Virus record (IMG/VR): IMGVR_UViG_3300037493_001343 | Span: 1-61,581 of that record | Reading direction: 5' to 3' (one strand) | Length of the DNA stretch: 61,581 nucleotides | Source of the DNA: a virus | Lineage: Duplodnaviria > Caudoviricetes | Shown here: positions 20,174-36,847 of the stretch, piece by piece | Numbering within the stretch: the first letter of the stretch is position 1 | How the letters are laid out: each line of letters starts with the position of its first letter | Translations under genes and position numbers: made by a program | The notes under the pieces: model-generated | Seen by the model: the letters and a program-made list of their open reading frames with translations, nothing else | Databases searched by the model: none | Told to the model about the DNA's origin: nothing

Positions 20174-20175
20174 AC

Positions 20176-20607
20176 TTACTTTTTAATCCTACTACCATTG
20201 AAAACCATATTAGGATTCACATAGTATAAATTGGCTATCTCGGACTTGGCAATCACATTGGCCTCTATTAGCCCCTTTAAGGCCTTATAAAAGGTAGCCC
20301 TACTATTCCATCCTAAATCCTTACAAACCTCAATACAGCGCAAATATACGTAGCTATCCTTATATTCCAGATCATTCATTATGTATAGAGTCAGTTTTAT
20401 GGTAGCCTGACAATTGGTCTTTAACATAAAATTGATCATCTCGTAGTATACCTTAACAAAGGGCAGGGAGTCTATAACCTTCTCCTCCCCTGCCTGGAGT
20501 ACCTCAAATACCTCCCCCGTCTTAGGATCCAATAATTGGTTAACCATCTTCTTGGTTACTACCTTCCTTAAACCATTTAAAGGGATTATGCTTTTTCTCT
20601 TATCCAT
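20176..20607 (-). CDS. RepL-like winged-HTH replication/maintenance protein (143 aa)
   Basis: DPKTGEV, FVKVY, HTH SRATFYKALKGLIE and YYVNPNMVFNG match the RepL family pattern. Confidence 0.7.
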   Translation of the reverse strand: MDKRKSIIPLNGLRKVVTKKMVNQLLDPKTGEVFEVLQAGEEKVIDSLPFVKVYYEMINFMLKTNCQATIKLTLYIMNDLEYKDSYVYLRCIEVCKDLGWNSRATFYKALKGLIEANVIAKSEIANLYYVNPNMVFNGSRIKK

Positions 20608-20623
20608 AAGTATAATTGTTTAT

Positions 20624-20654
20624 CAAAGGTACGTGTATATTCTGAGAATACAAA
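20624..20654 (-). promoter_or_regulatory. Bacteroidota sigmaA promoter for the RepL-like gene
   Basis: TTTG (20654-20651), 19-nt spacer, TACCTTTG (20631-20624). Confidence 0.7.
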
Positions 20655-20676
20655 AAATATTATTCTGATGATACAA
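20638..20676. repeat. Pair of imperfect 16-bp direct repeats (operator/iteron-like)
   Basis: tattctgagaatacaa (20638-20653, with internal palindrome tattct-g-agaata) and tattctgatgatacaa (20661-20676). Confidence 0.6.
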
Positions 20677-21483
20677 CACCTATTGATAATCAATGCACTT
20701 ACAACGCCTTCCTTCTTATATAATAAGAGAGGGGCTATATATATACTATATATTACTGGTGTAAATTAACCAATTAGTAAGCCCCCTCAAGGGGCGAAGT
20801 CAAAGGCCGACCCTGTAAAAACTGGGATATAGTGTATTTTTGGGGTACCATATATATATTGACTTAGGACACAGTGTCTTGATGGGGTTATATACTATAT
20901 ACGAGGACTCACACGCCTAAGGGGAACTCGCTCCTCTCAAGTGGGTAGGTATGACTATATGAATATTTTTTTACTATGGGATTACACGCGCTACTTGAAG
21001 TACTACTTTAGGTACACTATAAAGGTTACTTGAAGCTTTACTTTAAGTCCTTACTTTGCATATGGATATAGTATTACTTTTATGTATGGGGAACTTTTAT
21101 TTTTCTTTGTATATTGTTTTTGTTTTGGGATACATACAAAAAAGGGGATAGCCTCCTGATTCTTTTCTTCTTCTTTTCTTCTTTATTACTTTTACCCACA
21201 TATACCCACTTTGCCCCACTATTACTATATGTATGCTATAGTTTATGTATAGGTAAATTAGCTGTATGTATTGGTATTGCTGTATTCTACCTATTCTATA
21301 TTACTTTTGTTCGCCTTTTGATATGGTATTTTTCTTTAATATATACCCTATATTCAAATTATTTTACCCTATCTGAAAAATATTTTTAATTATTTGCCTG
21401 TATTAAAATAGTTGATTCTATTGGGATTGATTGCCATTATAAATTTTATCTATAATTGCTATAGAAAATAAGTATTGAAAAAA

Positions 21484-21515
21484 TTTGGAAAATGATTTTT
21501 GCCGTTGTATGTTTG
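21484..21515 (+). promoter_or_regulatory. Early Bacteroidota sigmaA promoter
   Basis: TTTG 21484-21487, 20-nt spacer, TATGTTTG 21508-21515, upstream of the first early gene. Confidence 0.75.
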
Positions 21516-21557
21516 CATTATCAAATTAATCATTAACAATTTAAATCTTTAAACACT

Positions 21558-21797
21558 ATGAAAAACAAAAGACAATTATTCGAACATTCACTTCTTAATT
21601 ATCAAAGGATAGCAGATGAAATTCTAGGCATCACTGACAATTTTTGGGACGCTATGCATTACGACATAGAAGGATATTATGGTGCGGCAATTGAAGAAGG
21701 CATAGAATACATTGATATCGAAGTACTAGAAAAACAAGTTAATACTGCCGAATCATTACTTAGCGCATTGAAAAATTTAAATTACATTTACGGATAA
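21558..21797 (+). CDS. Early acidic hypothetical protein (79 aa)
   Basis: Preceded by the recurring TTTAAACACT-ATG leader. Confidence 0.75.
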   Translation: MKNKRQLFEHSLLNYQRIADEILGITDNFWDAMHYDIEGYYGAAIEEGIEYIDIEVLEKQVNTAESLLSALKNLNYIYG

Positions 21798-21813
21798 ACT
21801 AAAACTAAACAAT

Positions 21814-21930
21814 ATGAAAAAAATTCTATTAGCAATTGCAGTAATCATTACAATATACCTTCTAGGTAATGATATCGACAAACAATTAGCATCAGACGGC
21901 AATCAATCACCTGTAACTTTAACTAAATAA
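21814..21930 (+). CDS. Small single-TM early protein (38 aa), paralog of 22680..22895
   Basis: Not in track: MKKILLAIAVIITIYLLGNDIDKQLASDGNQSPVTLTK; shares DKQLASDxNQxPV. Confidence 0.7.
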   Translation: MKKILLAIAVIITIYLLGNDIDKQLASDGNQSPVTLTK

Positions 21931-21955
21931 ATTAACTTTAAAAATCTAAAAAACT

Positions 21956-22312
21956 ATGAAACAATTTACAATTAACATCGGCCTACACAATAATCCTTTT
22001 GCTGTTATCAGGGAAGACGGCAAGTATTCTATGGTGCAAAAAAACATACAGCGCCTGTTGAATCTAGCATTTGAACATTCATCTGATTTTTATCGAATAG
22101 AAACAGGCAAATGGGACGGAGCAGATGAACCAACATTTGTCGGATATGTAGAAGCAGACGAGTACACCATAGACGCTAAGGTGCAATTACTTTGTGATAT
22201 AATGACTCAGCAATGTATACCATACCACTCAGAAGAGCAAAGCAACCTAGTTTATCAAACAGGTTGGAACGAATCTAAATTTGATTTTAACCCTAATTAC
22301 TTTATCAAATAA
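21956..22312 (+). CDS. Putative SAM lyase (T3 SAMase-like anti-restriction protein), 118 aa
   Basis: TGKW..DEPTFV...LCDIMTQQCIPY...LVY spacing recalls T3 SAMase (TGCY..EEKTV...LACNEWEQDCVL...LVY); among the first early genes. Confidence 0.45.
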   Translation: MKQFTINIGLHNNPFAVIREDGKYSMVQKNIQRLLNLAFEHSSDFYRIETGKWDGADEPTFVGYVEADEYTIDAKVQLLCDIMTQQCIPYHSEEQSNLVYQTGWNESKFDFNPNYFIK

Positions 22313-22338
22313 CTTTAACCCTTAAAACTTTAAACACT

Positions 22339-22674
22339 ATGAAACAATTTGCTAGAAAATGTACTAAATGTAACAAAGGTATGAATGATGGATACCTAGT
22401 TAATGATGTTGAATACTATTGCTCAGATGAATGTCTTTACAGCGTATACTCTGAAGATGAATACGAAGATTTATATATTGAAGACTCAGCATATTATACT
22501 GAGTGGAGCGAAGATGATATCGACCACGATGATGAGCCAATATACGAGAGCAATATACCTTCAACAATAAAGATAGATGTATACTACACAAGTGACGAGA
22601 ACGGAGCAATAATATTTGACGAAGAGCAAATGAGACAAATGTTTGAAACTAAATTAAATAACCTTAAAAACTAA
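22339..22674 (+). CDS. Early Zn-binding acidic protein (111 aa)
   Basis: CTKC...YYCSDEC cysteine pairs, very acidic C-terminal half. Confidence 0.7.
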   Translation: MKQFARKCTKCNKGMNDGYLVNDVEYYCSDECLYSVYSEDEYEDLYIEDSAYYTEWSEDDIDHDDEPIYESNIPSTIKIDVYYTSDENGAIIFDEEQMRQMFETKLNNLKN

Positions 22675-22679
22675 AAACT

Positions 22680-22895
22680 ATGAAACCTCAACAAGTAACT
22701 AACTTAATTTTATTAGTAGCCGTAGCTATTACCTTTTATTTCATTGGCTCATCTGAAGATAAACAACTAGCCTCTGATGTCAATCAGAAGCCTGTAGTAT
22801 TATTCAATATGTCGGAAGAAGAGCGTGACTACAACCTAGAGGTTGATGCCGTAAGAAATGACACCATATTCGTTTCACCTAAAGAGATTAAATAA
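22680..22895 (+). CDS. Small single-TM early protein (71 aa)
   Basis: TM helix followed by DKQLASDVNQKPV. Confidence 0.7.
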   Translation: MKPQQVTNLILLVAVAITFYFIGSSEDKQLASDVNQKPVVLFNMSEEERDYNLEVDAVRNDTIFVSPKEIK

Positions 22896-22901
22896 ACCAC
22901 T

Positions 22902-23186
22902 ATGAAAACAAGAATCGAAATTACAAGTCATTACGGCTTCGACCACAATTGGACATTGATATGTGAAACCTCAAAAGTAACTAGAAGTTTCTATCTAGGG
23001 CAAGATGTAAAGTTTTGCCATAGAGTTCTAGGGTTAACGCCTAGAGATGTAGTAGAAGCCATAGGCACTAAAGAGATAACGACTAAAGAGGGCAACCTAA
23101 AGCTAGCTAAGTTTATATGTAAGCAAATAGGCTTAGACGGACGCTCTATGCATAAGCTACAAGATTGGGTATTATGCTCAGAATAA
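22902..23186 (+). CDS. Early hypothetical protein (94 aa)
   Basis: Co-oriented ORF with ACT-ATG start context. Confidence 0.7.
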   Translation: MKTRIEITSHYGFDHNWTLICETSKVTRSFYLGQDVKFCHRVLGLTPRDVVEAIGTKEITTKEGNLKLAKFICKQIGLDGRSMHKLQDWVLCSE

Positions 23187-23217
23187 ATAACCTCTATAAC
23201 CATATAAATAAATTCAA

Positions 23218-23248
23218 TTTGGATATTAATTTTAACTAACTAACTTTG
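23218..23248 (+). promoter_or_regulatory. Early Bacteroidota sigmaA promoter
   Basis: TTTG 23218-23221, 19-nt spacer, TAACTTTG 23241-23248. Confidence 0.75.
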
Positions 23249-23279
23249 CAATATCAAATAACCTTAAAAACTAAAAACT

Positions 23280-23480
23280 ATGAATGACAATGCACTGACT
23301 AAGAAGTCAACAATTAAAATCAAGGAAACCTATTGCGGTCCAATTGTAAACACAGGAGTAAGAAACCTAGACGGCCCAATACAAGACAAAGAAAAATACT
23401 ATAAGAAGCTAGAGAAACAAGGCTTTATTGTAGAGCGTACAAAGTACGGCGTATTTATTACTAACCCTAAAAACTTTTAA
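23280..23480 (+). CDS. Early hypothetical protein (66 aa)
   Basis: Repeat leader TAACCTTAAAAACTAAAAACT-ATG. Confidence 0.7.
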   Translation: MNDNALTKKSTIKIKETYCGPIVNTGVRNLDGPIQDKEKYYKKLEKQGFIVERTKYGVFITNPKNF

Positions 23481-23483
23481 CCA

Positions 23484-23621
23484 ATGAAACAATTAATAAC
23501 ACTAACACTAATCGCAATTCTATTTGCATCTTGCACCACCACCAAGATTGGTTGGGGAACAGGAAACGGAATGAATGCTAACTGCTACAAAGCAAAACAT
23601 AGAATGCCTAACTTAAATTAA
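23484..23621 (+). CDS. Small early lipoprotein (45 aa)
   Basis: Not in track: MKQLITLTLIAILFASC-TTTKIGWGTGNGMNANCYKAKHRMPNLN, clear lipobox. Confidence 0.7.
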   Translation: MKQLITLTLIAILFASCTTTKIGWGTGNGMNANCYKAKHRMPNLN

Positions 23622-23643
23622 TTAACCTTAAAACTTAAACACT

Positions 23644-26379
23644 ATGAAAACAATTTGGATTGATGAAGGTAGTAGCAATGGCACTACCTACTACGAAAAT
23701 AAAAATGATGTCCTAGCGCACATTCGTTCTATTTTAAAAGAAGATAAAGATATGATGGACGCAAGAGGATATGCAAACATAAACAAAGTTTCTGAAGACG
23801 ATTTGTTTGAGATTGCACATTATCATTATTCAATATCAGAAATGTAAAAACAATTAACTAACCTTAAAACTTTAAACACTATGAATTACTCACAATTTTT
23901 ATTCAGCCAATTACTCAGAGACCTTTTAAAAACAAACCACCCTATCGAATACGATACACTATTCGAGGTTTCATCTAGAATATATAAAGATTACGATGAA
24001 TCTAATTATAACGATTCAAATAAAGATGAATATTCTTGTATGGTTTCTTACATAGAAAACAATACCGAAAAACTATTAACTTACTTTAACTAACCTTAAA
24101 ACTTTAAAAACTATGGAACACATATTTAGCATCAACGCAATTGAATTAGCATCTGAATTAGCAGATGAAAAAGTAAGAAACGAATTGTCTAACTACTTAA
24201 ATACCTATACCTACACTGACGAGGCACAAGATTTGTTTAACGAATACTATGACGAATACCTAACCAAGATCGAAGAGACAAAGGCCACAAAGCAATTGAC
24301 TATTCAAGTATACGGAGTACGCCTATCTGAAATGCCAAGAGAAGAAGCATTAAGGTTTCATCTTAACCTATCTGATGATGACTTTATGACCTCAGCAGAA
24401 GAGCAAGGCTATGTGTGGTCGCTAGAAGGATACACTAAGCAATATAATATGGATACCTTACCTAAAATTGACTTCATCAGATTCATTAACCTAACTGAAA
24501 AAATATAACTATGACTTTCTTACAACAAAGAGTATACGCAACACTATGCGCTAACCGATTAGAGCCGTTAGCCTACCACGACTTCCAATATCTAGCAATG
24601 GGATTACTAAGGGAATTGCAAGGCACAAATGACTATAGTAGTGTACATAAAACCATATGCGAAGCTGAGGAGCGAATGTACAAGATGCATAACTTCAAGC
24701 CATATGAAGAAACAGAGGTAAGCAACGATTCAATATTTCATTATCACATAATTAACTTTAACTTTTAACTTATGAAACTACATTTTAATATCGATGTTCA
24801 CCCTTTCTATAGCGAGATTAGGTTTGAAGTTACCAACGGAGTAGACAAATTGGTCCACACTGATAAGTATACTAACGGAATAGAAGATTGGGGAAGCCTT
24901 ATCTTTGATGGCAAGCAATACGATTGGAGTATATGTCACGCATATGGTCAAGATGTACAAGACCTAGTGAAACTATACGAGGTCGATGCTAATGATAACT
25001 TCAAGGTAGACTATACCAAGCCTTTGAAAAACAAATGGGTAAGAATATTTATTTAACTTTAAAAACTTTAAACTATGGGATTCTCAGTATTATATACAAG
25101 ACAAAGAGAAAAAGAATTAGCACAGGGAACACAATTCGATTCAGACGGAAATGAATTAGTACAATGGCACGACATATTCGATTGGTACAACGGAGACGAG
25201 CAGGATAGTTTTGATAAGGCAACCAACAGAGGCGCTAATAGTCAATCAATGCTAGACCTTCAGAGGCAGTCGGATCGGATTGTAAAAGAAAAACAAATAG
25301 GAGGTATGTATTAATGGAAACTAGGCTAACAACAATACTAAGGATAACAACAGGTCTGCCATTCGTTTATGGTATGCACCTATGGAATATCGGATTAGCA
25401 TTCGTACTAGGAATTGTAATGCACTACATAATTAAATTCTTTAAATTATATAACTTTTAATAACTTTAAACTATGAGCAGTAAAACTATTAAAGAGTGGT
25501 TCGAGCAACTACCTAAAGACATCAAAGCAGAGGCTATCTATTTGGCTACTGATTCTGGCACTTACGATTCAAGATTGAAAGAGCCGTCACTATCTGAGGC
25601 GCTATTGGTTGCATTCCCACACGACCACGAAGATGCCAAGACCGATTGGACAGGAGTATACCTTACATTAACCGCACTAAATAAATAAACTATGAGCAAC
25701 GAACTAAACGACCTATACGACCTACCCGACCACCTGCGTCATCTTGCCTATTTTACTACGATTCTAGAGGCTTGTAACAAAGATTGGAGTAATACTATAT
25801 CTAGCAAATTAGAGGAGCTGTATGAGGATACATTAAACCATTGCCTAAACAACGGAATTAAACTATCAATTGTATTCCCTCAGAAAGAATACACTAAACC
25901 AAACACTAATGAACAATAAGATAAATAGAAACAAGCAGTGCAACCATTGTGGTAATTACTTTGTAACTACAAACTACAAGATGAATACCTGCTCTAAGCA
26001 TTGCCAAGATAGAGTAGAAAGCAATCTGCATTTTAAATACTACGAGATAGACCTACCTAGTTTAGACGGAGATATATTCGATAGCGATTCATTCCAATGG
26101 AACGACTACCCTAACCCTAAAAACCACCACAAGATAGGCGATGGCTATCAAATAGAAGAAATTAACCTAAGTAAATTAACCTATAAACGCTAAACTATGG
26201 AAGACAAACACTATGAAACTATGATTGCACCCACCACCTTCAACGAGTGGGACTTAGAAACCTTAAGAGTATTCGACCTAGAGGATAACCCAATGAAGAG
26301 ATACGGAAGAGATTGCGAAACTGATTATTTAAGAACTAACCCATACACCAATGCGAAAAAAGAAAATGATATCAGTTAA
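23644..26379 (+). CDS. Array of about 11 small early hypothetical genes (23644, 23881, 24113, 24511, 24772, 25075, 25473, 25692, ~25909, 26197 and others)
   Basis: Contiguous 60-131 aa, mostly acidic ORFs, nearly all starting ...AACT-ATG or ACACT-ATG. Confidence 0.7.
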
Positions 26380-26743
26380 GAGAGGAACCCACAGGATAAG
26401 CCCACAGGTCATAAAGAAAGTTATGTGTATGGCTAACAACCTAGATGAATCAATCTTTGATAACAAGACAAGGAAGAACGAGGTAATCTTTATTAAGCAT
26501 ACATATGTGTATCTGTGCCGTAAGTATAGTGGCTTGGGAGTAGTACCTTTAGGTAGGCTAATGCAGAAAGACCATACCACCATATCTTACATATTGGATA
26601 AGATAGAATTTCAGAATGGCAAAGATGATTACATAACCGAACTTATTACTAACTTTGAAAAAACAATGTTCCACAATGAGCAATTCAACTTCAGACAAAC
26701 AACCAAAGAAGACAAGAAAGAAGAAAGTATCTTTACCCTCTAA
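26351..26743 (+). CDS. Protein with DnaA C-terminal (domain IV)-like HTH (130 aa)
   Basis: KTRKNEVIFIKHTYVYLCRKY...LGRLMQKDHTTISY matches the DnaA_C pattern (R...YL...IG...RDHTTV). Confidence 0.7.
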   Translation: MRKKKMISVKRGTHRISPQVIKKVMCMANNLDESIFDNKTRKNEVIFIKHTYVYLCRKYSGLGVVPLGRLMQKDHTTISYILDKIEFQNGKDDYITELITNFEKTMFHNEQFNFRQTTKEDKKEESIFTL

Positions 26744-26990
26744 TGAGGAAATGGATAAGGCTAAGGAGATAACCAAAGTACAGAGGCTATCAATACCTAC
26801 AGGCAATAAGCTTTGGGAGGTAGACCTCAAGACGCAGGAGATCCGAGAGGCTGAGGTAACTATAGTCGAGGGCAACAAGTCAGCCTTTAAAAAGGAGAAC
26901 TGCCTGTACATAGTGGCGCTCAACCCTAAGAATGTAATGCGTAAGCTATCTAACAAGCTTTCCGAGTACAAAAAGAGTCGTAATATATAG
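26655..26990 (+). CDS. Hypothetical basic protein (start probably 26676)
   Basis: ORF overlaps the previous gene and abuts the next. Confidence 0.6.
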   Translation: MKKQCSTMSNSTSDKQPKKTRKKKVSLPSNEEMDKAKEITKVQRLSIPTGNKLWEVDLKTQEIREAEVTIVEGNKSAFKKENCLYIVALNPKNVMRKLSNKLSEYKKSRNI

Positions 26991-26992
26991 GT

Positions 26993-27313
26993 ATGAAAAA
27001 GAAAACTAGAGCCGACTACTACAAGGAGAACCCTGAGTCATATGCTAAGAAAAAGAAATACGATTCTAAGCTAGGCAAGAGGGAAGACCTTAAGGACAAA
27101 CGAGTTGAATTAAATACCTATAACCGAAAGAAAGGTGTATACGGCAATGGCGATGGCTTAGATGCAGTGCATAAGGGCAAGAAGATTGTAGGCTACGCTA
27201 AGGCTTCCAAGAACAGAGGCGATACCAACGATTCAGCAGGAGACAAACGAGCAAGAGGAAAGAAAAAGATGATAGTGCAAAAGAAAAGCCCAGTGAAGCT
27301 CAAAAAAAAATAA
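26993..27313 (+). CDS. Basic HNH-like protein (106 aa)
   Basis: GDGLDAVH...ASKNRG resembles minimal phage HNH proteins; late-like TCGTAATATATA at 26978-26989. Confidence 0.5.
   Translation: MKKKTRADYYKENPESYAKKKKYDSKLGKREDLKDKRVELNTYNRKKGVYGNGDGLDAVHKGKKIVGYAKASKNRGDTNDSAGDKRARGKKKMIVQKKSPVKLKKK
27265..27280 (+). repeat. 16-bp element AAAGATGATAGTGCAA, copy 1
   Basis: Exact reverse-complement copies at 39956-39971 and 52153-52168. Confidence 0.85.
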
Positions 27314-27344
27314 AAAAAAAGAGAAAAGTTCATATAACATTGAT

Positions 27345-27352
27345 TATCTTTG
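27345..27352 (+). promoter_or_regulatory. Bacteroidota -7 element TATCTTTG for the tRNA-like gene
   Basis: TAnnTTTG ends 6 nt before the acceptor stem. Confidence 0.6.
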
Positions 27353-27358
27353 TTATAT

Positions 27359-27449
27359 AGTCAAGTGGCTGAATGGTGAGGCAGTTAACTCAATAAAACA
27401 TTAGAAAAGAGGATTAATAATGATGCAGGTTCAAATCCTGTCTTGACTG
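27359..27449 (+). tRNA. tRNA-like gene with an 18-nt insertion in the anticodon loop (nominal anticodon CAA; identity uncertain)
   Basis: Acceptor AGTCAAG/CTTGACT, D-arm GCTG-AATGGTG-AGGC, anticodon stem GTTAA/TTAAT, T-arm GCAGG-TTCAAAT-CCTGT. Confidence 0.75.
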
Positions 27450-27482
27450 CAACCAAGTTCATAGTTGGTTTAAGGTTTAAAA

Positions 27483-27519
27483 GTGAAATGCCCTCTCTGA
27501 AAAGGGAGGGTAATTTTAC
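27483..27519 (+). terminator. Hairpin after the tRNA-like gene
   Basis: ccctctc-tgaaaa-gggaggg stem-loop followed by taatttt. Confidence 0.55.
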
Positions 27520-27527
27520 CAACTAGA

Positions 27528-27539
27528 GCGTATTATATT
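27528..27539 (+). promoter_or_regulatory. Late promoter GCGTATTATATT facing a non-coding region
   Basis: 11/12 match; no ORF of 60 aa or more until 27986. Confidence 0.65.
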
Positions 27540-27543
27540 GATA

Positions 27544-27766
27544 GATTATTGATGGGACATATCAGTAGTTAATATAAAGAAATATTGAATGGCTTTTTGC
27601 TTGAAGGAGATGTCCCCTCCGATAGCGATTAGCCATTCTTGTTTTTAGACCTATCGTCCTATATGGTCTCTAATCTTTGGGATACTCTCAGCACGAGTCG
27701 GCAGATGTTCGGTGTTTTAATAGAGTATTCTGTCCACTACACAAGGTGAGCATCTTGTCTTTTTCT
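27544..27766 (+). ncRNA. Candidate structured non-coding RNA (~220 nt) with kissing loops
   Basis: Five consecutive hairpins with G-U pairs on the + strand; loop 1 GGGACAT (27554-60) is exactly complementary to loop 2 ATGTCCC (27610-16); ends in a hairpin plus T-tract. Confidence 0.65.
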
Positions 27767-27985
27767 AAATTTTTGACTAAAGGGGGGTAGTGATTCGCAG
27801 GTATTCGCCTTTCATAACACACACATCAATAAAATTTATAAGCCCCCTTGTCTCAAGCCACACAAAGACGCCTATCTATAACAACCCAACGAAACCTATC
27901 ATTGAATATGACGGCAATAAATAAATATAAAGATTTAACCAATAATAATATAACATTAATTAACTTTAACTAAAACTAAACAATT

Positions 27986-28363
27986 ATGAAAAAACAATTA
28001 ATTACTTTACTCTTGTTGCTTTCTAGCTATATTTCATATGGTCAGCAAGTAAATAGTTTCTGTTCTGTTGAAATTTGGAAATACAATGACTATACTGGTA
28101 AATTTTACCTTAGTAATACCACTACAAGTTATGGATATATGTTTACTAATGACGATGTAATTAAGATATATGTAGATGGTAAGTTGTATTTTGACTTTAA
28201 TAAAGTTGATTTAGAAATATATTCTGAAAAGGTAATTGAAGGAGTAAGCATTGTAACACTTAGAAGTAAAGTTGATAAAACATTATATATACAAGCTAAT
28301 AAATACTGGGTTGCAATAACAAAAGGAACTGATTATAAAATAATATTTAATACTTGCAAATAA
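27986..28363 (+). CDS. Secreted protein with Bacteroidota-type signal peptide (125 aa)
   Basis: MKKQLITLLLLLSSYISYG-Q signal. Confidence 0.7.
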   Translation: MKKQLITLLLLLSSYISYGQQVNSFCSVEIWKYNDYTGKFYLSNTTTSYGYMFTNDDVIKIYVDGKLYFDFNKVDLEIYSEKVIEGVSIVTLRSKVDKTLYIQANKYWVAITKGTDYKIIFNTCK

Positions 28364-29749
28364 CTATGGAACAAACAACTTACAAAGGGTTCCCAGTAAC
28401 CTTTAAATCTTATTACCAACCAAGTGAAAGAGATCTTGGCATAGAAGAACACTACATTATCGAGGAGATACTTATGTGTGGTATTGACCCTGAGGAACTA
28501 CTCGGTGATGATGGAATGAAAGAACTTATTGATTACATTCACGAAGAACTAATAAACTAAATAACTATGGCCCTACCAAAGAAAGTACGCATATACTATG
28601 ACAACATAGATAGCATCAAAAGAGAAATAAAAAGAGGTTGTAAGTTTGATGTGGTTCAAGAGAAGTACGCACTTGCATATGCTGATGAGAAAATAAAGGA
28701 CGGATCTTGGAAATCTTATTGCATTCCTCAATTAATAAATTGGAAAATTACTAAACACTAATTAACTTTACACTATGAATAACAAAAACTTTTCTACAGC
28801 TGTCACAGCCATTATGATTATTATGGCTTTAATTGGTTATGTATTCACCTTAACATACTTTATGCTATGCCCTCAGTAAAAGACGAAGTACTAATAGCAT
28901 TTATAAACGAATGCGAAAGAACAGACACCCTAGTTAATATGAGTAACTTTATCTATTGGCTATTTGAAAACTACAACCTAACTAAAAAATGAAATACCTA
29001 AAAGAACTTAAAGAACACCTAGAAACATTACAATACCAATGTGACGATACTGGTATGAGGATTGCTATTCATATGACTGAAGCAATGATAGAAAAGAAAG
29101 AATTTAACTCACTTAAAAACAAAATAAAAAGATTATGGAAGAAAAAACAATTGAACTAGACTTGGTTGAAGAATATCAAGCGTCACTTAACTTATTTAAG
29201 AATAATTTAAAAGAAAATGATTTCAAAGAATCAGATATAGAATTATTTGAAATGATATTTGAAATGGGTTACCAATCAGGAACCAAAGATGTTGTTGAAA
29301 AAATAAAAACTATAGCTAATGAATATGAAGCAACAGGTAAAGTTGGAGATAATCCATCTGCTCAAGATAGCTAATGTATCTAACGATGATATAGCTGATC
29401 GTATAGCAGAGCGCATATGCCAGATCGCAAAGGAACACTACGATCCAGAAGAAAGGGTGGTAGTAAAAGGCAGATGGTACGATAAAATAGTCCATAAATG
29501 GTTTGATAACGAATCTAAATTTTAACTATGGAAACATACATACAGATCCACGATGCCGAGATAGTAGACGGCAAGATAGTAGTCAATAAGGTAGTAATAG
29601 TTGACGAGAAAGGAAATATAATCCGAGAAGCTACAATGAACAATAACCTATTGGGTTTACTAAAGAGAATGATGACTAATACTAAATTTGATGGCGTAAT
29701 AAAAATGTTTGAACAAGATAAACCAACACTAAATGATCTACTTAAATAA
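28354..29749 (+). CDS. Cluster of small hypothetical genes (28354, 28567, 29135, 29319, 29528 plus several under 60 aa)
   Basis: Contiguous co-oriented short ORFs. Confidence 0.6.
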
Positions 29750-30257
29750 GCTCAGCTATGTAATCCAACTTCACGGATTAATCTACGACAGCTTCTACAA
29801 AGACAAAGACATAGACGCTAACTTCAGAGACGACCTTTCCACTAAGCAATTTATGAACCATAGAGATAAGGCTATGTACATTACTAACCAAGTAATAGAT
29901 TCCATCTTTGATTTGGCTAAGATCAATAAGAAGATTAATCTATTTGAGGTAAAGAAAGAATCCGATGGTAAACCTATTGGGTTCCTAGTAGTGACGGACC
30001 AGCTACAACTTATCTATAGTTTTGGTATATTCCCAGAGTTCAGAAAGGAATACTCTAAGGCTTTTATGGATCTAATACTAAAGGCTTACCCTAACTACCA
30101 ATTTGCATTATATAACAGAAATGAAAGGGCTATTCAATGGTTACAGAAGAACGGATACCTTATAGTTTTGGAAGACGAAGACCACGAGAGACGCAAATAT
30201 TCAGTGTTTGAACACTTCCAAAGAGTTAACGATTTGTCAAGCGTATTATCATTATGA
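29733..30257 (+). CDS. GNAT-family acetyltransferase-like protein (174 aa)
   Basis: IGFLVV...IYSFGIFPEFRK (motif A) and NERAIQWLQKNGY (motif B). Confidence 0.65.
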   Translation: MIYLNKLSYVIQLHGLIYDSFYKDKDIDANFRDDLSTKQFMNHRDKAMYITNQVIDSIFDLAKINKKINLFEVKKESDGKPIGFLVVTDQLQLIYSFGIFPEFRKEYSKAFMDLILKAYPNYQFALYNRNERAIQWLQKNGYLIVLEDEDHERRKYSVFEHFQRVNDLSSVLSL

Positions 30258-30351
30258 TGGAAAATATACTCGTTCAGATTGCTGAAGTTATAATTAAGGT
30301 TATTAGCGACATTGACTTCGAACAAGGTCAAGGCTAAAATATTTTTAGGTA

Positions 30352-30385
30352 TTTGATTAATTATTCAAATTAACATATACCTTTG
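30352..30385 (+). promoter_or_regulatory. Bacteroidota sigmaA promoter for the sigma-factor operon
   Basis: TTTG 30352-30355 and TACCTTTG 30378-30385 (22-nt spacer). Confidence 0.6.
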
Positions 30386-30399
30386 TCAAAATTCCATCT

Positions 30400-30768
30400 A
30401 TGCAAAATTATTATCGTTCCGAAATGGATCCGAAGAACTACTCAGTTTGTGAAGATCAATTAATCCATTGTGAATGCTTAGTGCAAGACAATGACACACT
30501 TCTTATGGCTGAGCAGTTAGGCATAGATATGGATGGTAAGCTATGGGTAGACATTACATTCGATCCTTCTGAGATCAAGATGTTAATGGTTGGCTCTGTG
30601 TTGACTCCAGACAACCCAAAGAAGAAGGCAGTAGCACTAACCTTGGTTTACTTTAAAGGTGAGTCTATGATGGACTGCATTGAGATTAATATCCCATATT
30701 CAATTATGAACGCACTTTGGCACGATTCCAGATCTAAACCTACCCACGCAATTTACAAATTAAAATAA
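30400..30768 (+). CDS. Hypothetical protein (122 aa) coupled to the sigma factor gene
   Basis: TAATG overlap with 30768. Confidence 0.7.
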   Translation: MQNYYRSEMDPKNYSVCEDQLIHCECLVQDNDTLLMAEQLGIDMDGKLWVDITFDPSEIKMLMVGSVLTPDNPKKKAVALTLVYFKGESMMDCIEINIPYSIMNALWHDSRSKPTHAIYKLK

Positions 30769-31622
30769 TGAGCTTCATTCAAAAACATTGGGAAGGGAAA
30801 CCTAAGTTCTCCTCGTCTATCCTTATTGACGATGAGTCCCTATACCGTATGCTAAACGAGAAAGAGTTCAGCAAGTCTAAGTTGGTTATATCCAACGATG
30901 ACTGCTTAAGAAACCTTTCAGAGTATAGACTTACAGGCGATGTTAAGTTCAGAAATAAAATAATAGATGGTAACCTTAGACTATTGCTATACCTAGCACT
31001 AAGATCATCGCAAGGCCAGTTCCCAGTATCTGACCTATTCCAAGAAGCCATCATTGGTTTCGCTGAAGGTATTGAAAAGTATGATGAGTTAAAAGCAAAT
31101 GGGGCTAAGGTGTCCTCATATGCTTATTACTTCGCAAGAAAGTATGTTCTGGCATATATAGAAAGAAATCAGTCAATTGTTTTCTTTACCAGAAAGCCAC
31201 TACGACTTAGGGCAAAAATCAAGAAGGGCCTCAAAGATGCGGTTAACGACCTCCAGATCGATGAGGCCTACATCCCTATAGAACTTATTGTAAATTCAAA
31301 GATGGAACGATCAGAGATGATAGGAGCCATAGAATTAAGCTATGATATTGTTAGCCTATCGGAAACACCAACCGATGGCGATGTATCCATAGGAGAAACC
31401 ATAGGAGACAGGTCTGAACAAGTAAGTGCACTAGATAATAAAGCCGATTTAATGGCTATCCTAGAAGGTTTAAATACTCAAGCAAAGAGAATGATTCTAG
31501 CTAAGTTTGAGGTCTCTGACGAGGATTACAAGGATGTTTGCGCATACTATAACTTAACTACAAAGCAAGGCGATGCCTACGTTTCAGAATTAATTTCGCA
31601 TTTAAGAAAAAATATTTTTTAA
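30768..31622 (+). CDS. Phage sigma70-family RNA polymerase sigma factor (284 aa)
   Basis: Region 2: RNKIIDGNLRLLLYLA, DLFQEAIIGFAEGIEKYD, GAKVSSYAYYF; region 3.2-like VSLSETPTDGDVSIGETIGD. Confidence 0.85.
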   Translation: MSFIQKHWEGKPKFSSSILIDDESLYRMLNEKEFSKSKLVISNDDCLRNLSEYRLTGDVKFRNKIIDGNLRLLLYLALRSSQGQFPVSDLFQEAIIGFAEGIEKYDELKANGAKVSSYAYYFARKYVLAYIERNQSIVFFTRKPLRLRAKIKKGLKDAVNDLQIDEAYIPIELIVNSKMERSEMIGAIELSYDIVSLSETPTDGDVSIGETIGDRSEQVSALDNKADLMAILEGLNTQAKRMILAKFEVSDEDYKDVCAYYNLTTKQGDAYVSELISHLRKNIF

Positions 31623-31627
31623 AAAAG

Positions 31628-31658
31628 TTTGAAAGTAATATAACAATCATTACTTTTG
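31628..31658 (+). promoter_or_regulatory. Bacteroidota sigmaA promoter for the recombination operon
   Basis: TTTG 31628-31631, 19-nt spacer, TACTTTTG 31651-31658. Confidence 0.75.
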
Positions 31659-31681
31659 TAATATAATAAACATCCAACCTT

Positions 31682-32269
31682 ATGAAAGACACACAAACAA
31701 AAAGCGTTTTCGAAACGCTATCTGCAATCAATTGCAACGATCACACAGAACAAAAGAATGGTTTAACCTATTTATCTTGGGCTTGGGCTTGGGGTATAGT
31801 TAAGTCTTACTATCCATCGGCTAACTACGAAGTGGTTAACTATGATGGAAAACCTTTTCTTAGCGATATGTTCTTAGGGTATTTAGTAACCACTAAAGTT
31901 ACAATAGATGGCGAGACTATACCAATGTCTTTGCCAGTTATGAATGGAGCCAATAAGTCTCAAAAGCACGTTGAGTATACCTATAAAACTAAGTACGATG
32001 AAAAAACAGTAGAAGCTGCTACAATGTTTGACATCAACACAGCTATTATGAGATGCTTAACCAAGAACTTAGCAATGTTTGGATTAGGTCATTACATCTA
32101 TGCAGGCGAAGACTTACCTAAGTCTGTAGAGACCAGATCTATATCTGAAGTTATGAAAGACTTTAAAACTAAGGCTTCATTGAAGCAGTGGTATGCTACA
32201 TTAAATTCTGCTCAGCAGAAAGAAATCAAGGCTTCATTAACAGAGTACGCTGGTACTTTATCTGAATAA
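31682..32269 (+). CDS. Sak-type (DUF1071/Rad52-like) single-strand annealing protein
   Basis: KNGLTYLSWAWAW, LPVMNGANK, FDINTAIMRCLTKNLAMFGLGHYIYAGEDLP. Confidence 0.9.
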   Translation: MKDTQTKSVFETLSAINCNDHTEQKNGLTYLSWAWAWGIVKSYYPSANYEVVNYDGKPFLSDMFLGYLVTTKVTIDGETIPMSLPVMNGANKSQKHVEYTYKTKYDEKTVEAATMFDINTAIMRCLTKNLAMFGLGHYIYAGEDLPKSVETRSISEVMKDFKTKASLKQWYATLNSAQQKEIKASLTEYAGTLSE

Positions 32270-32348
32270 ACTCTCTTTGGTTGGAAAGGCTTGGGGACTT
32301 AGTGCCCCTTGACTTCCGATCTCCTTTTAACCTTTTAAATTCAACCAA

Positions 32349-33170
32349 ATGCAAATCGATCAAAGATTTATTGATTGGCTTAACGGCCCAGACTTCAGAC
32401 TTTCATACTCTACACTTAAGAGTGTATTGAGTTCACCTGCTAACTTCTACTGTACTATTATGGAGAAGTTGACTAGAACCGAACAGGAACCTACACCTGC
32501 ACAAAGATTCGGTACATTGATTCACACATTAGTATTGGAACCAGAAACATTTGAAGGTAAGTATGTTGTCGGTAAGAAGTTCGGTAGAACAAAAGCAGAG
32601 CAAGAAGAGAAAGCTTTGTTTGCTGAACAGAACGCTGGCAAGATTGTACTTACTGACGAAGAGTTTGCAAAGGCTCAAATGATATTATCATCTGGCTCAG
32701 ACGAGTTAAACCAAATGAGAGAGCAACTCAGCTATGCTGAGTTAGTAATCCAAAAAGATATTGAGGACCTAAGATTCAAAACTATTATAGATGGTTTATC
32801 TTTGGATCACGGCACAATCTTTGAAGTTAAAACAACTTCAGATGTAGATGCTGATAAGTTATTGTCCTCGTTCTATAATTACAAGTACACTATGCAAGCT
32901 GCATTGTACAAGCGTATGGTTCGTGAGTTTCACGGAGTAGATCCAGTATTGGAATACGTAGTAGTACAAACGGTTGCGCCTTACAAAGTTTATATGTTAC
33001 CTGCTGCAGACAGATACATTGCATACGGTGAGAAGCAATTAGCAGATGCTATTAGTGAATTTAAAATGGTTAGAGCGATGGGGAATTGGGGAGACGGATG
33101 GAACCTTAAGGCATTAGATTTGCCATCTTGGGCAGTAAAACAACAAGAAAGAAAAGATCTAGAATTTTAA
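32349..33170 (+). CDS. RecE/exonuclease VIII-like PD-(D/E)XK nuclease (DUF3799-like)
   Basis: LSYSTLK, FGTLIHTLVLEP, KTIIDG, EVKTT, YTMQAALY. Confidence 0.85.
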   Translation: MQIDQRFIDWLNGPDFRLSYSTLKSVLSSPANFYCTIMEKLTRTEQEPTPAQRFGTLIHTLVLEPETFEGKYVVGKKFGRTKAEQEEKALFAEQNAGKIVLTDEEFAKAQMILSSGSDELNQMREQLSYAELVIQKDIEDLRFKTIIDGLSLDHGTIFEVKTTSDVDADKLLSSFYNYKYTMQAALYKRMVREFHGVDPVLEYVVVQTVAPYKVYMLPAADRYIAYGEKQLADAISEFKMVRAMGNWGDGWNLKALDLPSWAVKQQERKDLEF

Positions 33171-33171
33171 G

Positions 33172-33594
33172 ATGAATGAAAAGCAATTGATGGGTATATT
33201 GAAACAAACGATATACCCTGATCTTGACAAGGCAGAGGATCTAACATCTACATTTGATTGTATAAGTTTTATAAACTTAGAGATGATTGAACTCAAGTCA
33301 AGACAGACACACTACGATGATCTGGTTATTGAAAAGATGAAGTATGATTCACTGGTTGATAAGTCGAAGAAGATAGGTATGAAGCCAGTATACATATGCT
33401 CAACGCCAAATGGTATATGGAGGTTCAGAGTATGGACACTTGCAGAACCAATATGGGAAATGAAGTCGATGCCTAAGACCTCACAATTCAATAACAGAAA
33501 CTGGGTACAAAAAGAAGTAGGGTTTATTAATATCGAGAAAGGAGAGGATATAACCTACATAATTGAAAAAGCTAACACTAAATCCTTTCGGTAA
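33172..33594 (+). CDS. PD-(D/E)XK restriction-endonuclease-fold protein (140 aa)
   Basis: FDC...IELKSR...LVIEKMKYD motif. Confidence 0.65.
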   Translation: MNEKQLMGILKQTIYPDLDKAEDLTSTFDCISFINLEMIELKSRQTHYDDLVIEKMKYDSLVDKSKKIGMKPVYICSTPNGIWRFRVWTLAEPIWEMKSMPKTSQFNNRNWVQKEVGFINIEKGEDITYIIEKANTKSFR

Positions 33595-33597
33595 TAG

Positions 33598-33879
33598 GTG
33601 AACCGAGGATATATTATGAGTACACAAGCTAAGTACGAACAACGTGAAGGTTCTGGAACCTTATTCGTAAATGACAAAAAAGGAAACGAGAAAGCGCCAG
33701 ACTATTCTGGAACTGTCTTAATCAACGGAAAAGAAATGCGTATCGCTGGTTGGAAAAAACAAGCGAAGTCTGGATCTACCTTTCTTTCTATCCAAGTAAG
33801 TGAACAAATGGCTCCATCTGGAAAACCTGCAACGACCTCAAAATCAGCAGCTCCAGTATCAGATGATTTACCATTCTAA
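33598..33879 (+). CDS. Small ssDNA-binding protein (DUF736-like); start probably 33616
   Basis: GTLFVNDKK...KAPDYSG...IAGWKK...FLSI and C-terminal DDLPF SSB tail. Confidence 0.8.
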   Translation: MNRGYIMSTQAKYEQREGSGTLFVNDKKGNEKAPDYSGTVLINGKEMRIAGWKKQAKSGSTFLSIQVSEQMAPSGKPATTSKSAAPVSDDLPF

Positions 33880-33898
33880 TTGAGAATCAATAGTTTAT

Positions 33899-33919
33899 GG
33901 GGAGTTAACGCTCCCCTTT
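33899..33919 (+). terminator. Intrinsic terminator
   Basis: ggggag-ttaacg-ctcccc followed by ttt. Confidence 0.6.
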
Positions 33920-33947
33920 AACTTTGAAAAGTAAGGCGTAGTATATT
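33919..33947 (+). promoter_or_regulatory. Possible tandem promoters for nrdJ: host-type TAACTTTG (33919-26) and late-type GCGTAGTATATT (33936-47)
   Basis: Both motifs lie in the gap before the ATG at 33976. Confidence 0.5.
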
Positions 33948-33975
33948 AAATCACTAAGAAAAAACAGAACGGCAA

Positions 33976-36845: not shown

Positions 36846-36847
36846 AT

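What the first reader, a model, noticed from the sequence alone, without database searches (positions are those of the whole stretch)
27345..27520. tRNA-like gene with an 18-nt insertion in the anticodon loop
Seen: intact acceptor, D and T arms (27359-27449), a host-type -7 promoter element and a downstream hairpin. The anticodon stem GTTAA/TTAAT encloses 25 nt: CT-CAA, then TAAAACATTAGAAAAGAG (27394-27411), then GA. Removing the 18 nt gives a canonical CU-CAA-GA loop, but the variable region is short, unlike bacterial tRNA-Leu, and CCA does not follow position 73 directly. Known: short anticodon-loop introns are archaeal/eukaryotic, bacterial tRNA introns are large self-splicing RNAs, and phages counter anticodon nucleases with tRNAs. 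Inference: a non-decoding tRNA mimic (decoy for anticodon nucleases or RelA-type sensors, or a processing signal), a tRNA needing cut-and-ligate repair, or a decaying tRNA. Its position next to the kissing-loop RNA suggests a two-RNA locus with early and late promoters.
Basis: partly seen in the sequence, partly recalled or inferred. Interest (0 to 1): 0.72.

Follow-up and report, generated by a model that had tools for sequence, protein, structure and literature searches.

The report
Phage tRNA look-alike displaying conserved loop
This phage gene makes a tRNA-shaped RNA that cannot read codons in the form encoded, because a 25-letter open loop sits where the anticodon loop should be, and several phages that look unrelated keep that loop almost letter for letter, so it probably works as a displayed binding site rather than as an intron or a dead gene.

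Summary
At 27359-27449 (+) lies a tRNA-shaped gene: Rfam tRNA 45 bits, no ARAGORN call without intron mode. A 5-bp stem encloses 25 nt.

It is neither an assembly error nor a decaying gene. Seven alleles from five kinds of phage contig keep 137 of 140 stem cells paired. Seven pairs show changes on both sides, four of them in the anticodon-like stem. Only 4 of 25 loop columns vary, against 32 of 67 elsewhere. One carrier, a complete 124-kb phage, shares 1 detectable protein with this 61.6-kb phage.

The gene belongs to a large phage family with a nearly constant leucine-tRNA-like frame and unrelated centres of about 20-110 nt (at least 120 IMG/VR stretches). This scan's earlier notes describe the family on other DNA as an "anticodon-less tRNA-Leu mimic". 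I found it in no paper searched and in no Rfam family other than tRNA.

Best reading (0.6): a non-decoding tRNA mimic that host tRNA enzymes process and that displays a conserved single-stranded purine-rich loop to a host partner. Splicing to a Leu decoder is unsupported but not excluded (0.12). Ten loop letters are 9/10 complementary to the 16S rRNA tail, which is a weak lead. Function is untested.

The parts
27345..27352 (+). TATCTTTG, a Bacteroidota-type -7 promoter-like element ending 7 nt before the RNA's first base
   Evidence: Sequence. The motif alone is not significant in the genome (105 found, 84.5 expected). It is kept upstream of the RNA cassette in 7 of 7 relatives' loci read. Promoter activity was not tested.
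27359..27449 (+). tRNA-shaped RNA gene, 91 nt: a leucine-tRNA-like frame around a 5-bp stem and a 25-nt loop
   Evidence: Rfam tRNA 45 bits. Covariation in 7 alleles. Family membership.
27359..27383 (+). 5' frame: acceptor 5' strand (27359-65) and D arm with 3 standard pairs plus G.A (27368-82)
   Evidence: alignment; acceptor 49 of 49 cells paired, D stem 19 of 21. The family's version of this stretch hits annotated phage tRNA-Leu genes (H7, H30, H35).
27384..27388 (+). 5' strand of the anticodon-like stem (GTTAA)
   Evidence: Pairs with 27414-18. In 7 alleles, 4 of the 5 pairs show changes on both sides and 34 of 35 cells pair.
27389..27413 (+). 25-nt open purine-rich loop CTCAATAAAACATTAGAAAAGAGGA.
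   Evidence: 21 of 25 columns are invariant in 7 alleles, against 35 of 67 outside the loop (Fisher one-sided p=0.004). Complementarity and duplex energy of -9.6 kcal/mol.
27414..27418 (+). 3' strand of the anticodon-like stem (TTAAT)
   Evidence: The T>C change at 27418 in runs X2 and X22 turns G.U into G-C.
27419..27449 (+). 3' frame: 6-nt variable region, T arm (27425-41), acceptor 3' strand (27442-48), discriminator G (27449)
   Evidence: T stem 35 of 35 cells paired. The G>A change at 27425 in X22 keeps the pair.
27451..27470 (+). Hairpin AACCAA-GTTCATAG-TTGGTT, the first part of a 3' module kept behind every cassette variant
   Evidence: present after types A, A' and C. Fold.
27493..27520 (+). 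Terminator-like hairpin with a T-rich tail
   Evidence: 6 pairs, 6-nt loop, tail TAATTTTACC. Relatives have a stronger T run.

Best explanation
The gene encodes a non-decoding tRNA mimic. It is one member of a large family of phage RNAs. These keep an almost constant leucine-tRNA-like frame (acceptor stem, Leu-type D arm, T arm) and carry unrelated sequences in place of the anticodon and variable arms.

Shown here:
- the cloverleaf frame and the central stem are under selection;
- the 24-25-nt loop is the best-conserved part of the gene;
- the same gene sits in several kinds of phage contig, and one carrier, a complete 124-kb phage, shares 1 detectable protein with this phage;
- the frame recurs around unrelated centres in many phage contigs.

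Inferred:
- The frame makes host tRNA enzymes treat the transcript as a tRNA. RNase P would act where there is a leader, and here transcription probably starts at or next to base 1. 3' trimming and CCA addition would follow. Most alleles have the A73 that LeuRS needs, but this one has G73.
- That handling would give a stable, correctly ended RNA.
- The stem holds out a single-stranded purine-rich loop, which is the working part and binds a host component in a sequence-specific way.
- The partner is not identified. The first candidate to test is the 3' tail of 16S rRNA. A host RNA-binding protein or a tRNA-directed defence nuclease is also possible.
For: - Shape under selection: 137 of 140 cells pair in 7 alleles. 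Seven pairs change on both sides. 0 of 500 shuffles reach the observed pairing or covariation.
- Loop conserved more than anything else: 4 of 25 loop columns vary against 32 of 67 elsewhere (p=0.004). In the 4 closest alleles, 0 of the 18 insert columns vary against 24 of 74 elsewhere (p=0.002). Nine of the 10 stem columns next to the loop vary.
- The letter after CAA, where a tRNA needs a purine at position 37 if the insert is placed at 37/38, is T, G, G, C, G, G, T in the 7 alleles.
- Spread across phages: alleles lie in the 61.6-kb clade (window, L025, L040-42), in complete 124- and 125-kb phages, and in contigs of 71, 87 and 40 kb. Only 1 of the window's ORFs of 50 aa or more has a tblastn match in the 124-kb genome.
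- Sole tRNA-like gene: it is the only Rfam tRNA hit in the window and the best of two in each large phage.
In the 80 loci returned there were 86 matches. Of these, 71 had a recognisable 3' end and 63 had distinct centres, in gene lengths of 73-159 nt. Fifty of 71 share one identical first 25 nt, 64 of 71 have A73 and 69 of 71 have C next.
- Leu-type frame: the 5' frame matches annotated tRNA-Leu genes of cultured phages.
- Allelic cassette: close relatives carry other family members (types C and D) at the same promoter.
- Literature: E. coli LeuRS needs A73 and the D/T elbow but neither the anticodon arm nor the long arm (PMC9976931, passages read).
Against: - No RNA data show the transcript's ends, its level or its charging. 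The only RNA-library evidence is one assembled contig that keeps the loop (X22), and it could be DNA carry-over.
- No partner was found. The loop's complement is absent from the phage. It is at control level in five Bacteroidota genomes, but those were chosen because they held an exact match, and the host is unknown. The exact 18-mer scanned in 185,579 species' genomes gave 55 scattered hits, none of them tRNA-like.
- This allele has G73, which the review lists as blocking LeuRS in E. coli tRNA-Ser. Leucylation of this copy is therefore doubtful.
- Removing 17-18 nt does leave a textbook 7-nt loop with U33 and a Leu anticodon in all 7 alleles. That fits the Leu-type frame and keeps the splicing idea alive.
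- Thermodynamic folding alone does not favour the cloverleaf (z-scores -1.06 and +0.59).
- The 7 alleles were found by searching for the loop itself. That inflates its apparent conservation: variants with a changed loop would have been missed.
Confidence: 0.6

Rival explanations
1. It is a real intron-containing tRNA. An unknown cut-and-ligate route, run by host or phage enzymes, removes 17-18 nt from the loop. The product is a class-I-shaped decoder with a Leu anticodon (CAA or CAG).
For: - ARAGORN in intron mode calls tRNA-Leu with an 18-nt intron here and in six other alleles.
- In all 7 alleles, removal leaves CU-CAA-G(A/C) or CU-CAG-G(A/C), with U33 and G37.
- The frame is Leu-type.
Against: - The insert is the most conserved part of the gene, and I found no insert-free allele (not an exhaustive search).
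- The register is ambiguous: three registers give three anticodons.
- There is no bulge-helix-bulge and no ribozyme (18 nt; no Rfam intron hit).
- No RNA ligase, kinase or endonuclease family appears among about 48 ORFs.
- ARAGORN's intron mode calls introns in 56 of 71 family members and spreads its 65 calls over 18 labels (17 named isotypes and one unassigned) on one identical frame. The call therefore carries little weight.
- The RNA-library contig keeps the insert and no joint across it was reported (weak).
- UUG and CUG codons are not especially used (13.1 and 1.3 per 1000).
Confidence: 0.12
2. Only the tRNA shape matters. The element marks a cutting site for RNase P and RNase Z, or acts as a 5' stabiliser. 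It releases or protects neighbouring RNAs: the conserved 3' module here, and the flanking mRNAs in the large phages. The loop has no function of its own.
For: - A conserved hairpin-plus-terminator module follows every cassette variant.
- In L153 the gene lies 8 nt after a stop codon and 15 nt before the next ATG on the same strand.
- The frame is far more constant than the centres across the family.
- Known analogues (recalled, not read here): MHV68 tRNA-miRNA units, the MALAT1 mascRNA, plant mitochondrial t-elements.
Against: A cutting mark does not explain why 21 of 25 loop letters are fixed while the stem beside it changes at 9 of 10 columns. It also does not explain why several kinds of phage contig keep this particular centre.
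Confidence: 0.15
3. It is a decoy or competitive inhibitor for a host tRNA-cutting defence enzyme or another tRNA-Leu-handling factor. The frame supplies recognition and the open loop acts as a bait or as an uncuttable substitute.
For: - The locus behaves like an accessory hot spot. The same promoter and the same 3' module surround four different RNA contents in phages whose terminase is 95-97% identical.
- Several variants coexist in one sample (X2).
- Phage tRNAs are known to counter tRNA-cutting defences (PMC10264068, PMC11464382 and PMC11555353; titles and abstracts seen in the listing).
Against: No tRNA-Leu-specific bacterial nuclease is known to me, and none was found in the papers listed. 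No host is identified. An arms-race bait would be expected to vary, whereas this loop is nearly fixed. This reading overlaps the best explanation and differs only in the partner.
Confidence: 0.1
4. It is a decaying tRNA pseudogene, or the insertion is an assembly artefact.
For: ARAGORN default finds no tRNA. The loop is incompatible with decoding.
Against: All changed stem pairs but three cells stay paired across 7 alleles. The insert recurs in independent assemblies and runs.
Confidence: 0.02

Closest known systems
Class II tRNA-Leu of bacteria and phages (Rfam RF00005)
   Same: Acceptor, D and T arms. The Leu-type D arm of the family frame matches annotated phage tRNA-Leu genes and resembles Flavobacterium tRNA-Leu D arms. 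A73 is present in 6 of 7 alleles and in 64 of 71 family members.
   Different: No 7-nt anticodon loop and no long variable arm. The first pair is A1-U72. This copy has G73. It cannot decode in the form encoded.
Minimalist E. coli tRNA-Leu lacking the anticodon and variable arms (Larkin et al. 2002, as described in PMC9976931; passages read)
   Same: Shows that a Leu frame without a decoding arm can still be leucylated if A73 and the D/T elbow are intact. That is the design of most family members.
   Different: Those are laboratory constructs. Charging of the phage RNAs is untested, and this allele lacks A73.
'Enigmatic' introns in tRNAs of Lak megaphages (Devoto et al. 2019, PMC6784885; passages read)
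   Same: Phages of Bacteroidota-type hosts. Inserts in tRNA genes with no self-splicing core. Insert sequence identical across diverged genomes.
   Different: Lak inserts interrupt otherwise assignable tRNAs, and insert-free alleles exist (their Fig. 4 legend). Here I found no insert-free allele. Their insert sequences and sizes are in a supplementary table that I could not open.
tmRNA
   Same: A tRNA-like frame in which the anticodon arm is replaced by a functional insert.
   Different: There is no tmRNA call, no G3.U70 (here U3-A70) and no tag reading frame, and the insert is only 25 nt. It is not a member.
Recombinant 'tRNA scaffold' for expressing RNAs in E. coli (PMC3753655 and PMC3401473; titles and abstracts seen in the listing)
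   Same: A cargo RNA replaces the anticodon arm, so that the cell processes and stabilises the product like a tRNA. This is the working analogy for the family.
   Different: An engineering method, not a natural system. The analogy is an inference.
tRNA-like processing marks (MHV68 tRNA-miRNA units, mascRNA, t-elements; recalled, not read here)
   Same: Non-charged tRNA shapes that recruit RNase P or RNase Z next to other RNAs.
   Different: They carry no conserved displayed loop. The loop conservation here asks for more than a cutting mark.

Membership tests
Decoding tRNA (canonical cloverleaf, RF00005) | Acceptor, D and T arms with tRNA geometry | tested here: met
   45 bits, model positions 1-71. 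137 of 140 cells paired in 7 alleles.
Decoding tRNA (canonical cloverleaf, RF00005) | 7-nt anticodon loop with U33 and a purine at 37 | tested here: not met
   The loop is 25 nt (24 nt in three alleles). ARAGORN default finds no gene.
Bacterial tRNA-Leu | Discriminator A73 | tested here: not met
   The window has G at 27449. The other 6 alleles have A. The review lists G73 as blocking LeuRS in E. coli tRNA-Ser.
Bacterial tRNA-Leu | Long variable arm (class II) | tested here: not met
   6 nt (AATGAT) between the stem and the T arm.
Bacterial tRNA-Leu | Leu-type D arm and elbow (A14, A15 with U48, G18G19) | tested here: inconclusive
   A14, A15, GG and a T before the T stem are present. The family frame hits annotated tRNA-Leu genes. 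The window's own D arm differs from that frame at 8 of 25 letters, and no charging test was done.
Archaeal/eukaryal-type tRNA intron | Bulge-helix-bulge motif at the splice sites | tested here: not met
   The folds show at most a 3-bp CUC/GAG extension with a 2-nt bulge and a 17-nt loop. There is no second helix.
Archaeal/eukaryal-type tRNA intron | Splicing endonuclease and RNA ligase available | tested here: inconclusive
   None found among about 48 phage ORFs scanned against Pfam or PHROGs. About 30 short ORFs were not scanned, and the host is unknown.
Group I intron in a tRNA gene | Catalytic core (P3-P9) | tested here: not met
   The insert is 17-18 nt. No Rfam intron family matched, even at E up to 10.
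Phage tRNA-Leu-like frame with swappable centre ('anticodon-less tRNA-Leu mimic' of this scan's notes; not a published family as far as I searched) | Shared 5' frame (acceptor strand plus D arm) and 3' frame (T arm plus acceptor strand) | tested here: met
   The window differs from the commonest frame at 8 of 25 letters on the 5' side and 4 of 25 on the 3' side. Two of these changes together keep the pair between acceptor position 6 and its partner, and a third turns the third D-stem pair from G-C into U.G. Alleles L189 and L282 carry the same loop on a frame much closer to the standard one.
Phage tRNA-Leu-like frame with swappable centre ('anticodon-less tRNA-Leu mimic' of this scan's notes; not a published family as far as I searched) | Centre is not a decoding arm and differs between members | tested here: met
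   63 distinct centres in 71 genes. ARAGORN default of 71, spread over many isotypes.
tmRNA | tmRNA call, G3.U70, tag reading frame | tested here: not met
   ARAGORN's tmRNA search found none. Pair 3:70 is U-A.
Lak-phage 'enigmatic' tRNA introns | Same insert sequence or architecture | not testable with these tools

The most novel reading that the evidence does not exclude
Many unrelated phages use one constant leucine-tRNA frame as a natural display scaffold for interchangeable small RNA cargos. This particular cargo is aimed at the ribosome. Its fixed 10-mer AGAAAAGAGG would pair with the 3' tail of 16S rRNA. Bacteroidia ribosomes normally hide that tail under bS21 and use it only to autoregulate the bS21 gene rpsU. 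The phage RNA would then trap bS21-free ribosomes or disturb bS21 replenishment during infection.
Probability: 0.08. Interest if true: 0.9.

Novelty: new variant of a known kind. Interest (0 to 1): 0.66.

Why it matters
tRNA genes in phages are usually read as codon supplements or as replacements for tRNAs cut by host defences. Here a tRNA-derived gene has given up decoding but is kept, letter for letter in its loop. One of its carriers is a complete phage that shares almost no detectable protein with this one. It is one of very many phage genes built on the same leucine-tRNA frame around unrelated centres.

If the frame is a natural expression-and-display scaffold, two things follow:
- It points to a large, unannotated class of phage small RNAs that standard tRNA finders either miss or mislabel as intron-containing tRNAs of random isotypes.
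- It offers ready-made cargos whose partners can be fished out.

For annotation, the practical lesson is that an ARAGORN intron call on this frame is not evidence of an intron.

Tried and rejected
Searches that gave nothing useful
- GenBank phages, window 27300-27620 and 20000-40000: no match.
- An exact pattern of both tRNA halves with a free centre in IMG/VR: 0 hits.
- The promoter 20-mer in IMG/VR: only the two known relatives.
- Distant relatives of the upstream 106-aa ORF (45-51% identity, 20 loci): protein genes follow, with no tRNA-like element. The cassette is confined to the close clade in that lineage.

Antisense-target idea
- The loop's complement has no other site in the phage at up to 3 mismatches.
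- The repeated early-gene leaders are not complementary to it.
- Five Bacteroidota genomes show control-level counts. They were chosen because they held an exact match, so this is a poor test.
- The genome-collection scan gave 55 scattered hits, about 14 of which look like ordinary ribosome-binding sites of Firmicutes genes.

Other ideas rejected
- Mini-ORF: the loop's GAGG, a spacer, then ATG ATG ... TGA inside the T arm. The ATG is absent in L189 and L282, and the frame is only 2 codons long in the A' allele.
- Conserved protein neighbour: across 83 loci the commonest neighbour cluster is in 9 loci. Some are terminase subunits. There is no universal partner.
- Shared short motif among family centres: only mild enrichments, for example AGTAAG in 8 of 56 against 1.6 expected. 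I did not pursue this.

Weak or uninformative results
- Thermodynamic folds do not single out the cloverleaf.
- Read laying used Logan contigs only, so it gives no transcript ends, strand or level. The small RNA-run shares are not evidence of expression or habitat.
- Papers: searches found no description of this RNA or its family. One search was for the ribosome literature only.
- The second weak tRNA hits in G007 and G008 did not reappear and were not studied.
- Supplement Table 6 of PMC6784885 could not be opened.
This call repeats it with that field added and one coordinate slip in the observation check corrected.
Full report
What is there

The window is a complete 61,581-bp phage genome with direct terminal repeats. 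It encodes portal, terminase, ribonucleotide reductase and primase-helicase genes, and a sigma-like factor. Rfam finds exactly one RNA family hit in it: tRNA (RF00005) at 27359-27449 on the + strand, 45 bits against a threshold of 29, covering model positions 1-71. ARAGORN in its default mode finds nothing.

The sequence shows the following parts:
- acceptor stem: 27359-65 with 27442-48;
- D arm: 27368-82, with three standard pairs plus G.A;
- central stem: a 5-bp AU/GU stem, 27384-88 with 27414-18;
- loop: 25 nt, CTCAATAAAACATTAGAAAAGAGGA (27389-27413);
- variable region: 6 nt;
- T arm: 27425-41;
- discriminator: G, followed by CAACCA.

TATCTTTG at 27345-52 ends 7 nt before the gene. A terminator-like hairpin follows at 27493-27510.

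Is it real and under selection?

Close relatives have a terminase 95-97% identical to this phage's. They were reached through that gene, through the upstream 106-aa ORF and through whole-record searches. Four assemblies (L025, L040, L041, L042) carry one allele, A', with the same 18-nt insert. A' differs from the window at 17 of 92 columns. Ten of those differences lie in stems and touch 7 pairs, and all 7 stay paired. Three of the pairs changed on both sides.

Contigs of a DNA run (X2) and of an RNA library (X22) give further close alleles that keep the insert. Their changes at 27418 and 27425 turn G.U pairs into G-C and A-U.

Scanning IMG/VR for the 18-mer, and then for a looser loop pattern, found the same gene in other phage contigs:
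- two complete phages of 124 and 125 kb (L152, L153);
- contigs of 71, 87 and 40 kb (L189, L282, L283).

Across the 7 distinct alleles, 137 of 140 stem cells pair. Seven pairs show changes on both sides, and 4 of these are among the 5 pairs of the anticodon-like stem. None of 500 shuffles reaches the observed pairing or covariation, and slid controls give 24-52% pairing. A pseudogene or an assembly error is therefore excluded.

The loop is the most conserved part

In the 7 alleles only 4 of the 25 loop columns vary: the letter after CAA, a one-letter length change plus one substitution in the middle, and the last letter. Outside the loop 32 of 67 columns vary (one-sided Fisher p=0.004). Nine of the 10 stem columns next to the loop vary.

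Among the four closest alleles, 0 of the 18 insert columns vary against 24 of 74 elsewhere (p=0.002). One caveat applies: five of the alleles were found by searching for the loop, so versions with a changed loop would have been missed.

The 124-kb phage appears unrelated to this one. Of all window ORFs of 50 aa or more, one has a tblastn match in it, at 32% identity. The RNA genes of the two phages differ at only 13 of 91 positions. A phage-encoded partner shared by these two carriers is therefore unlikely. The RNA probably works with host components.

It belongs to a large family

At the same conserved promoter and in front of the same conserved 3' module, close relatives carry other contents:
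- L026 has a normal tRNA(UAU) at 66 bits, followed by a 73-nt tRNA-like gene with no anticodon loop (type C).
- L037 has a 122-nt tRNA-like gene with a 72-nt centre (type D), followed by type C.

Run X2 holds types A and D side by side. Types C and D share the acceptor and T arms with the window's gene, with compensatory changes.

The 80 loci returned held 86 matches:
- 71 had a recognisable T arm and acceptor 3' strand;
- 50 of the 71 share an identical first 25 nt;
- the commonest last 25 nt occurs in 26 of the 71, and most of the rest differ from it by one or two letters;
- 64 have discriminator A, and 69 have C after it;
- the centres are 63 distinct sequences of roughly 20-110 nt.

The 5' frame matches annotated tRNA-Leu genes of cultured phages such as Arthrobacter phage Atuin, Caulobacter phage CcrBL9 and cyanophage S-RIM4. 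It also resembles the D arms of Flavobacterium tRNA-Leu.

ARAGORN's intron mode returns a call for 65 of these 71 genes and adds an 'intron' in 56 of them. The calls spread over 18 labels (17 named isotypes and one unassigned). Default mode accepts 18 of the 71. An ARAGORN intron call on this frame therefore means little.

This scan's earlier notes describe the same kind of RNA on other DNA as an 'anticodon-less tRNA-Leu mimic' (e1-6023255, e1-3294341, e1-3503535, e1-5703150). One note appears to describe this very loop type in another genome (e1-6150567). Those are unchecked AI notes. The family features that I report rest on my own calls.

Intron or displayed loop?

In favour of an intron:
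- Removing 17-18 nt leaves a 7-nt loop with U33, a Leu anticodon (CAA or CAG, depending on register) and G37 in every allele. That fits the Leu-type frame.
- Lak megaphages of Prevotella have tRNAs with unexplained introns that are identical across cohorts (PMC6784885, passages read).

Against an intron:
- The insert is conserved as strongly as the 'exonic' loop letters.
- If the insert is placed at the canonical 37/38 site, position 37 reads T, G, G, C, G, G, T.
- There is no bulge-helix-bulge and no ribozyme.
- I found no RNA ligase, polynucleotide kinase or splicing endonuclease among about 48 ORFs scanned.
- I met no insert-free allele.
- The one RNA-library contig across the gene keeps the insert (weak).
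- The sister genes at the same locus (types C and D) have centres that no splicing would turn into an anticodon arm.

I therefore read the loop as the working part of a mature, non-decoding RNA (confidence 0.6). I keep splicing as a rival at 0.12.

How it probably works

The steps below are inferred, except where a call is cited.
- The tRNA frame recruits the host's tRNA maturation enzymes. In this phage the conserved -7 element puts the start at or next to base 1. In L153 the gene lies 8 nt after a stop codon and 15 nt before the next ATG, so it must be cut out of an mRNA.
- No CCA is encoded, so it would have to be added.
- Leucylation is plausible for the A73 alleles. E. coli LeuRS needs A73 and the elbow, not the anticodon or long arm (PMC9976931). 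It is doubtful for this G73 copy.
- The covarying stem then presents a 24-25-nt single strand.

Its partner is unknown. One lead concerns the ribosome:
- The fixed 10-mer AGAAAAGAGG is 9/10 complementary to the sequence GGAACACCTCCTTTCT, which was found in two Flavobacteriia genomes. I take that sequence to be the 3' end of 16S rRNA, partly from recall.
- Only 13 of 20,000 composition-matched shuffles do as well.
- The predicted duplex energy is -9.6 kcal/mol in all alleles, reached by 40 of 5,000 shuffles.
- All carriers have SD-poor, A-rich leaders: 4 of 40 ORFs with an SD-like core in the window, against a 9% background, and 0-1 per locus elsewhere. That points to Bacteroidia-type hosts.
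- Ribosomes of such hosts hide this tail under bS21 and use it only for rpsU autoregulation (PMC9976891, passages read; PMC7797042 and PMC13000453, abstracts in the listing).

This lead is post hoc, one of several targets I considered, and the pairing is much weaker than that reported for rpsU. I give it about 0.08.

Rivals that keep weight:
- a pure RNase P/Z cutting mark or stabiliser for the conserved 3' module or flanking mRNAs (0.15), which does not explain the fixed loop;
- a decoy for a tRNA-directed host factor (0.10), which is a version of the main reading with a different partner.

Relation to the neighbouring RNA

The link is not obligatory. L041 joins the A' allele to a different downstream region. 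L026 and L037 do the same with type C. The large phages have protein genes on both sides.

Novelty and limits

I found no paper describing this RNA or the family. Rfam 15 sees only a sub-par tRNA. It is a new variant of a known kind (a tRNA mimic), and this scan has seen it before on other DNA.

Limits:
- there are no transcript data;
- the host is unknown;
- allele discovery is biased towards the loop and towards an exact 5' motif;
- paper supplements were closed.

Noticed in passing
L026:1438-1511 (- strand of the locus), relative IMGVR_UViG_3300047557_000960: At the same promoter a sister phage carries a canonical tRNA with anticodon UAU (66 bits). AUA is the commonest Ile codon in the window's genes (467 uses, 28.5 per 1000), so that sister has a plausible codon-supply tRNA where this phage has the mimic.
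   Followed up: partly
window 27450-27535: A 3' module follows every cassette variant in the clade. It consists of hairpin AACCAA/TTGGTT with loop GTTCATAG, a terminator-like hairpin, and a possible long-range pairing of CATAGTTGG with CCAACTAG. It may be an RNA element in its own right.
   Followed up: partly
L025, L026, L040-L042: about 60-100 nt upstream of the RNA (window equivalent 27290-27325): Relatives have a run of 9-13 C followed by long A runs just upstream of the promoter, and the lengths differ between assemblies. The window has no C run there. This could be a slippery tract or an assembly-sensitive spot.
   Followed up: no
L162-L241 (family loci): In 69 of 71 family genes the base after the discriminator is C, and the base before position 1 is usually T. 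This suggests shared processing signals.
   Followed up: no
L166, L236, L168, L178: Some phage contigs carry two or three family genes with different centres within a few kb. One centre (L239) contains a T-arm-like hairpin.
   Followed up: no
L199, L211 and similar loci: In several contigs the family gene lies within about 50-1100 nt of small or large terminase genes. This is not universal.
   Followed up: partly
window 4439-4978 (-): This is the only window ORF with a detectable homologue in the otherwise unrelated 124-kb carrier G007 (32% identity over 136 aa). It was not annotated.
   Followed up: no
window 35843-36409 (+) and 16965-17582 (-): HNH-endonuclease-like and NUMOD1-containing ORFs, that is, homing-endonuclease-type genes, lie in the replication and structural modules.
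   Followed up: no
G008:C1:113142-113199 and G007:C1:111953-112057: Second, weak tRNA-model hits in the two large carrier phages (39 and 25 bits). They were not seen again and may be further tRNA-like elements.
   Followed up: partly
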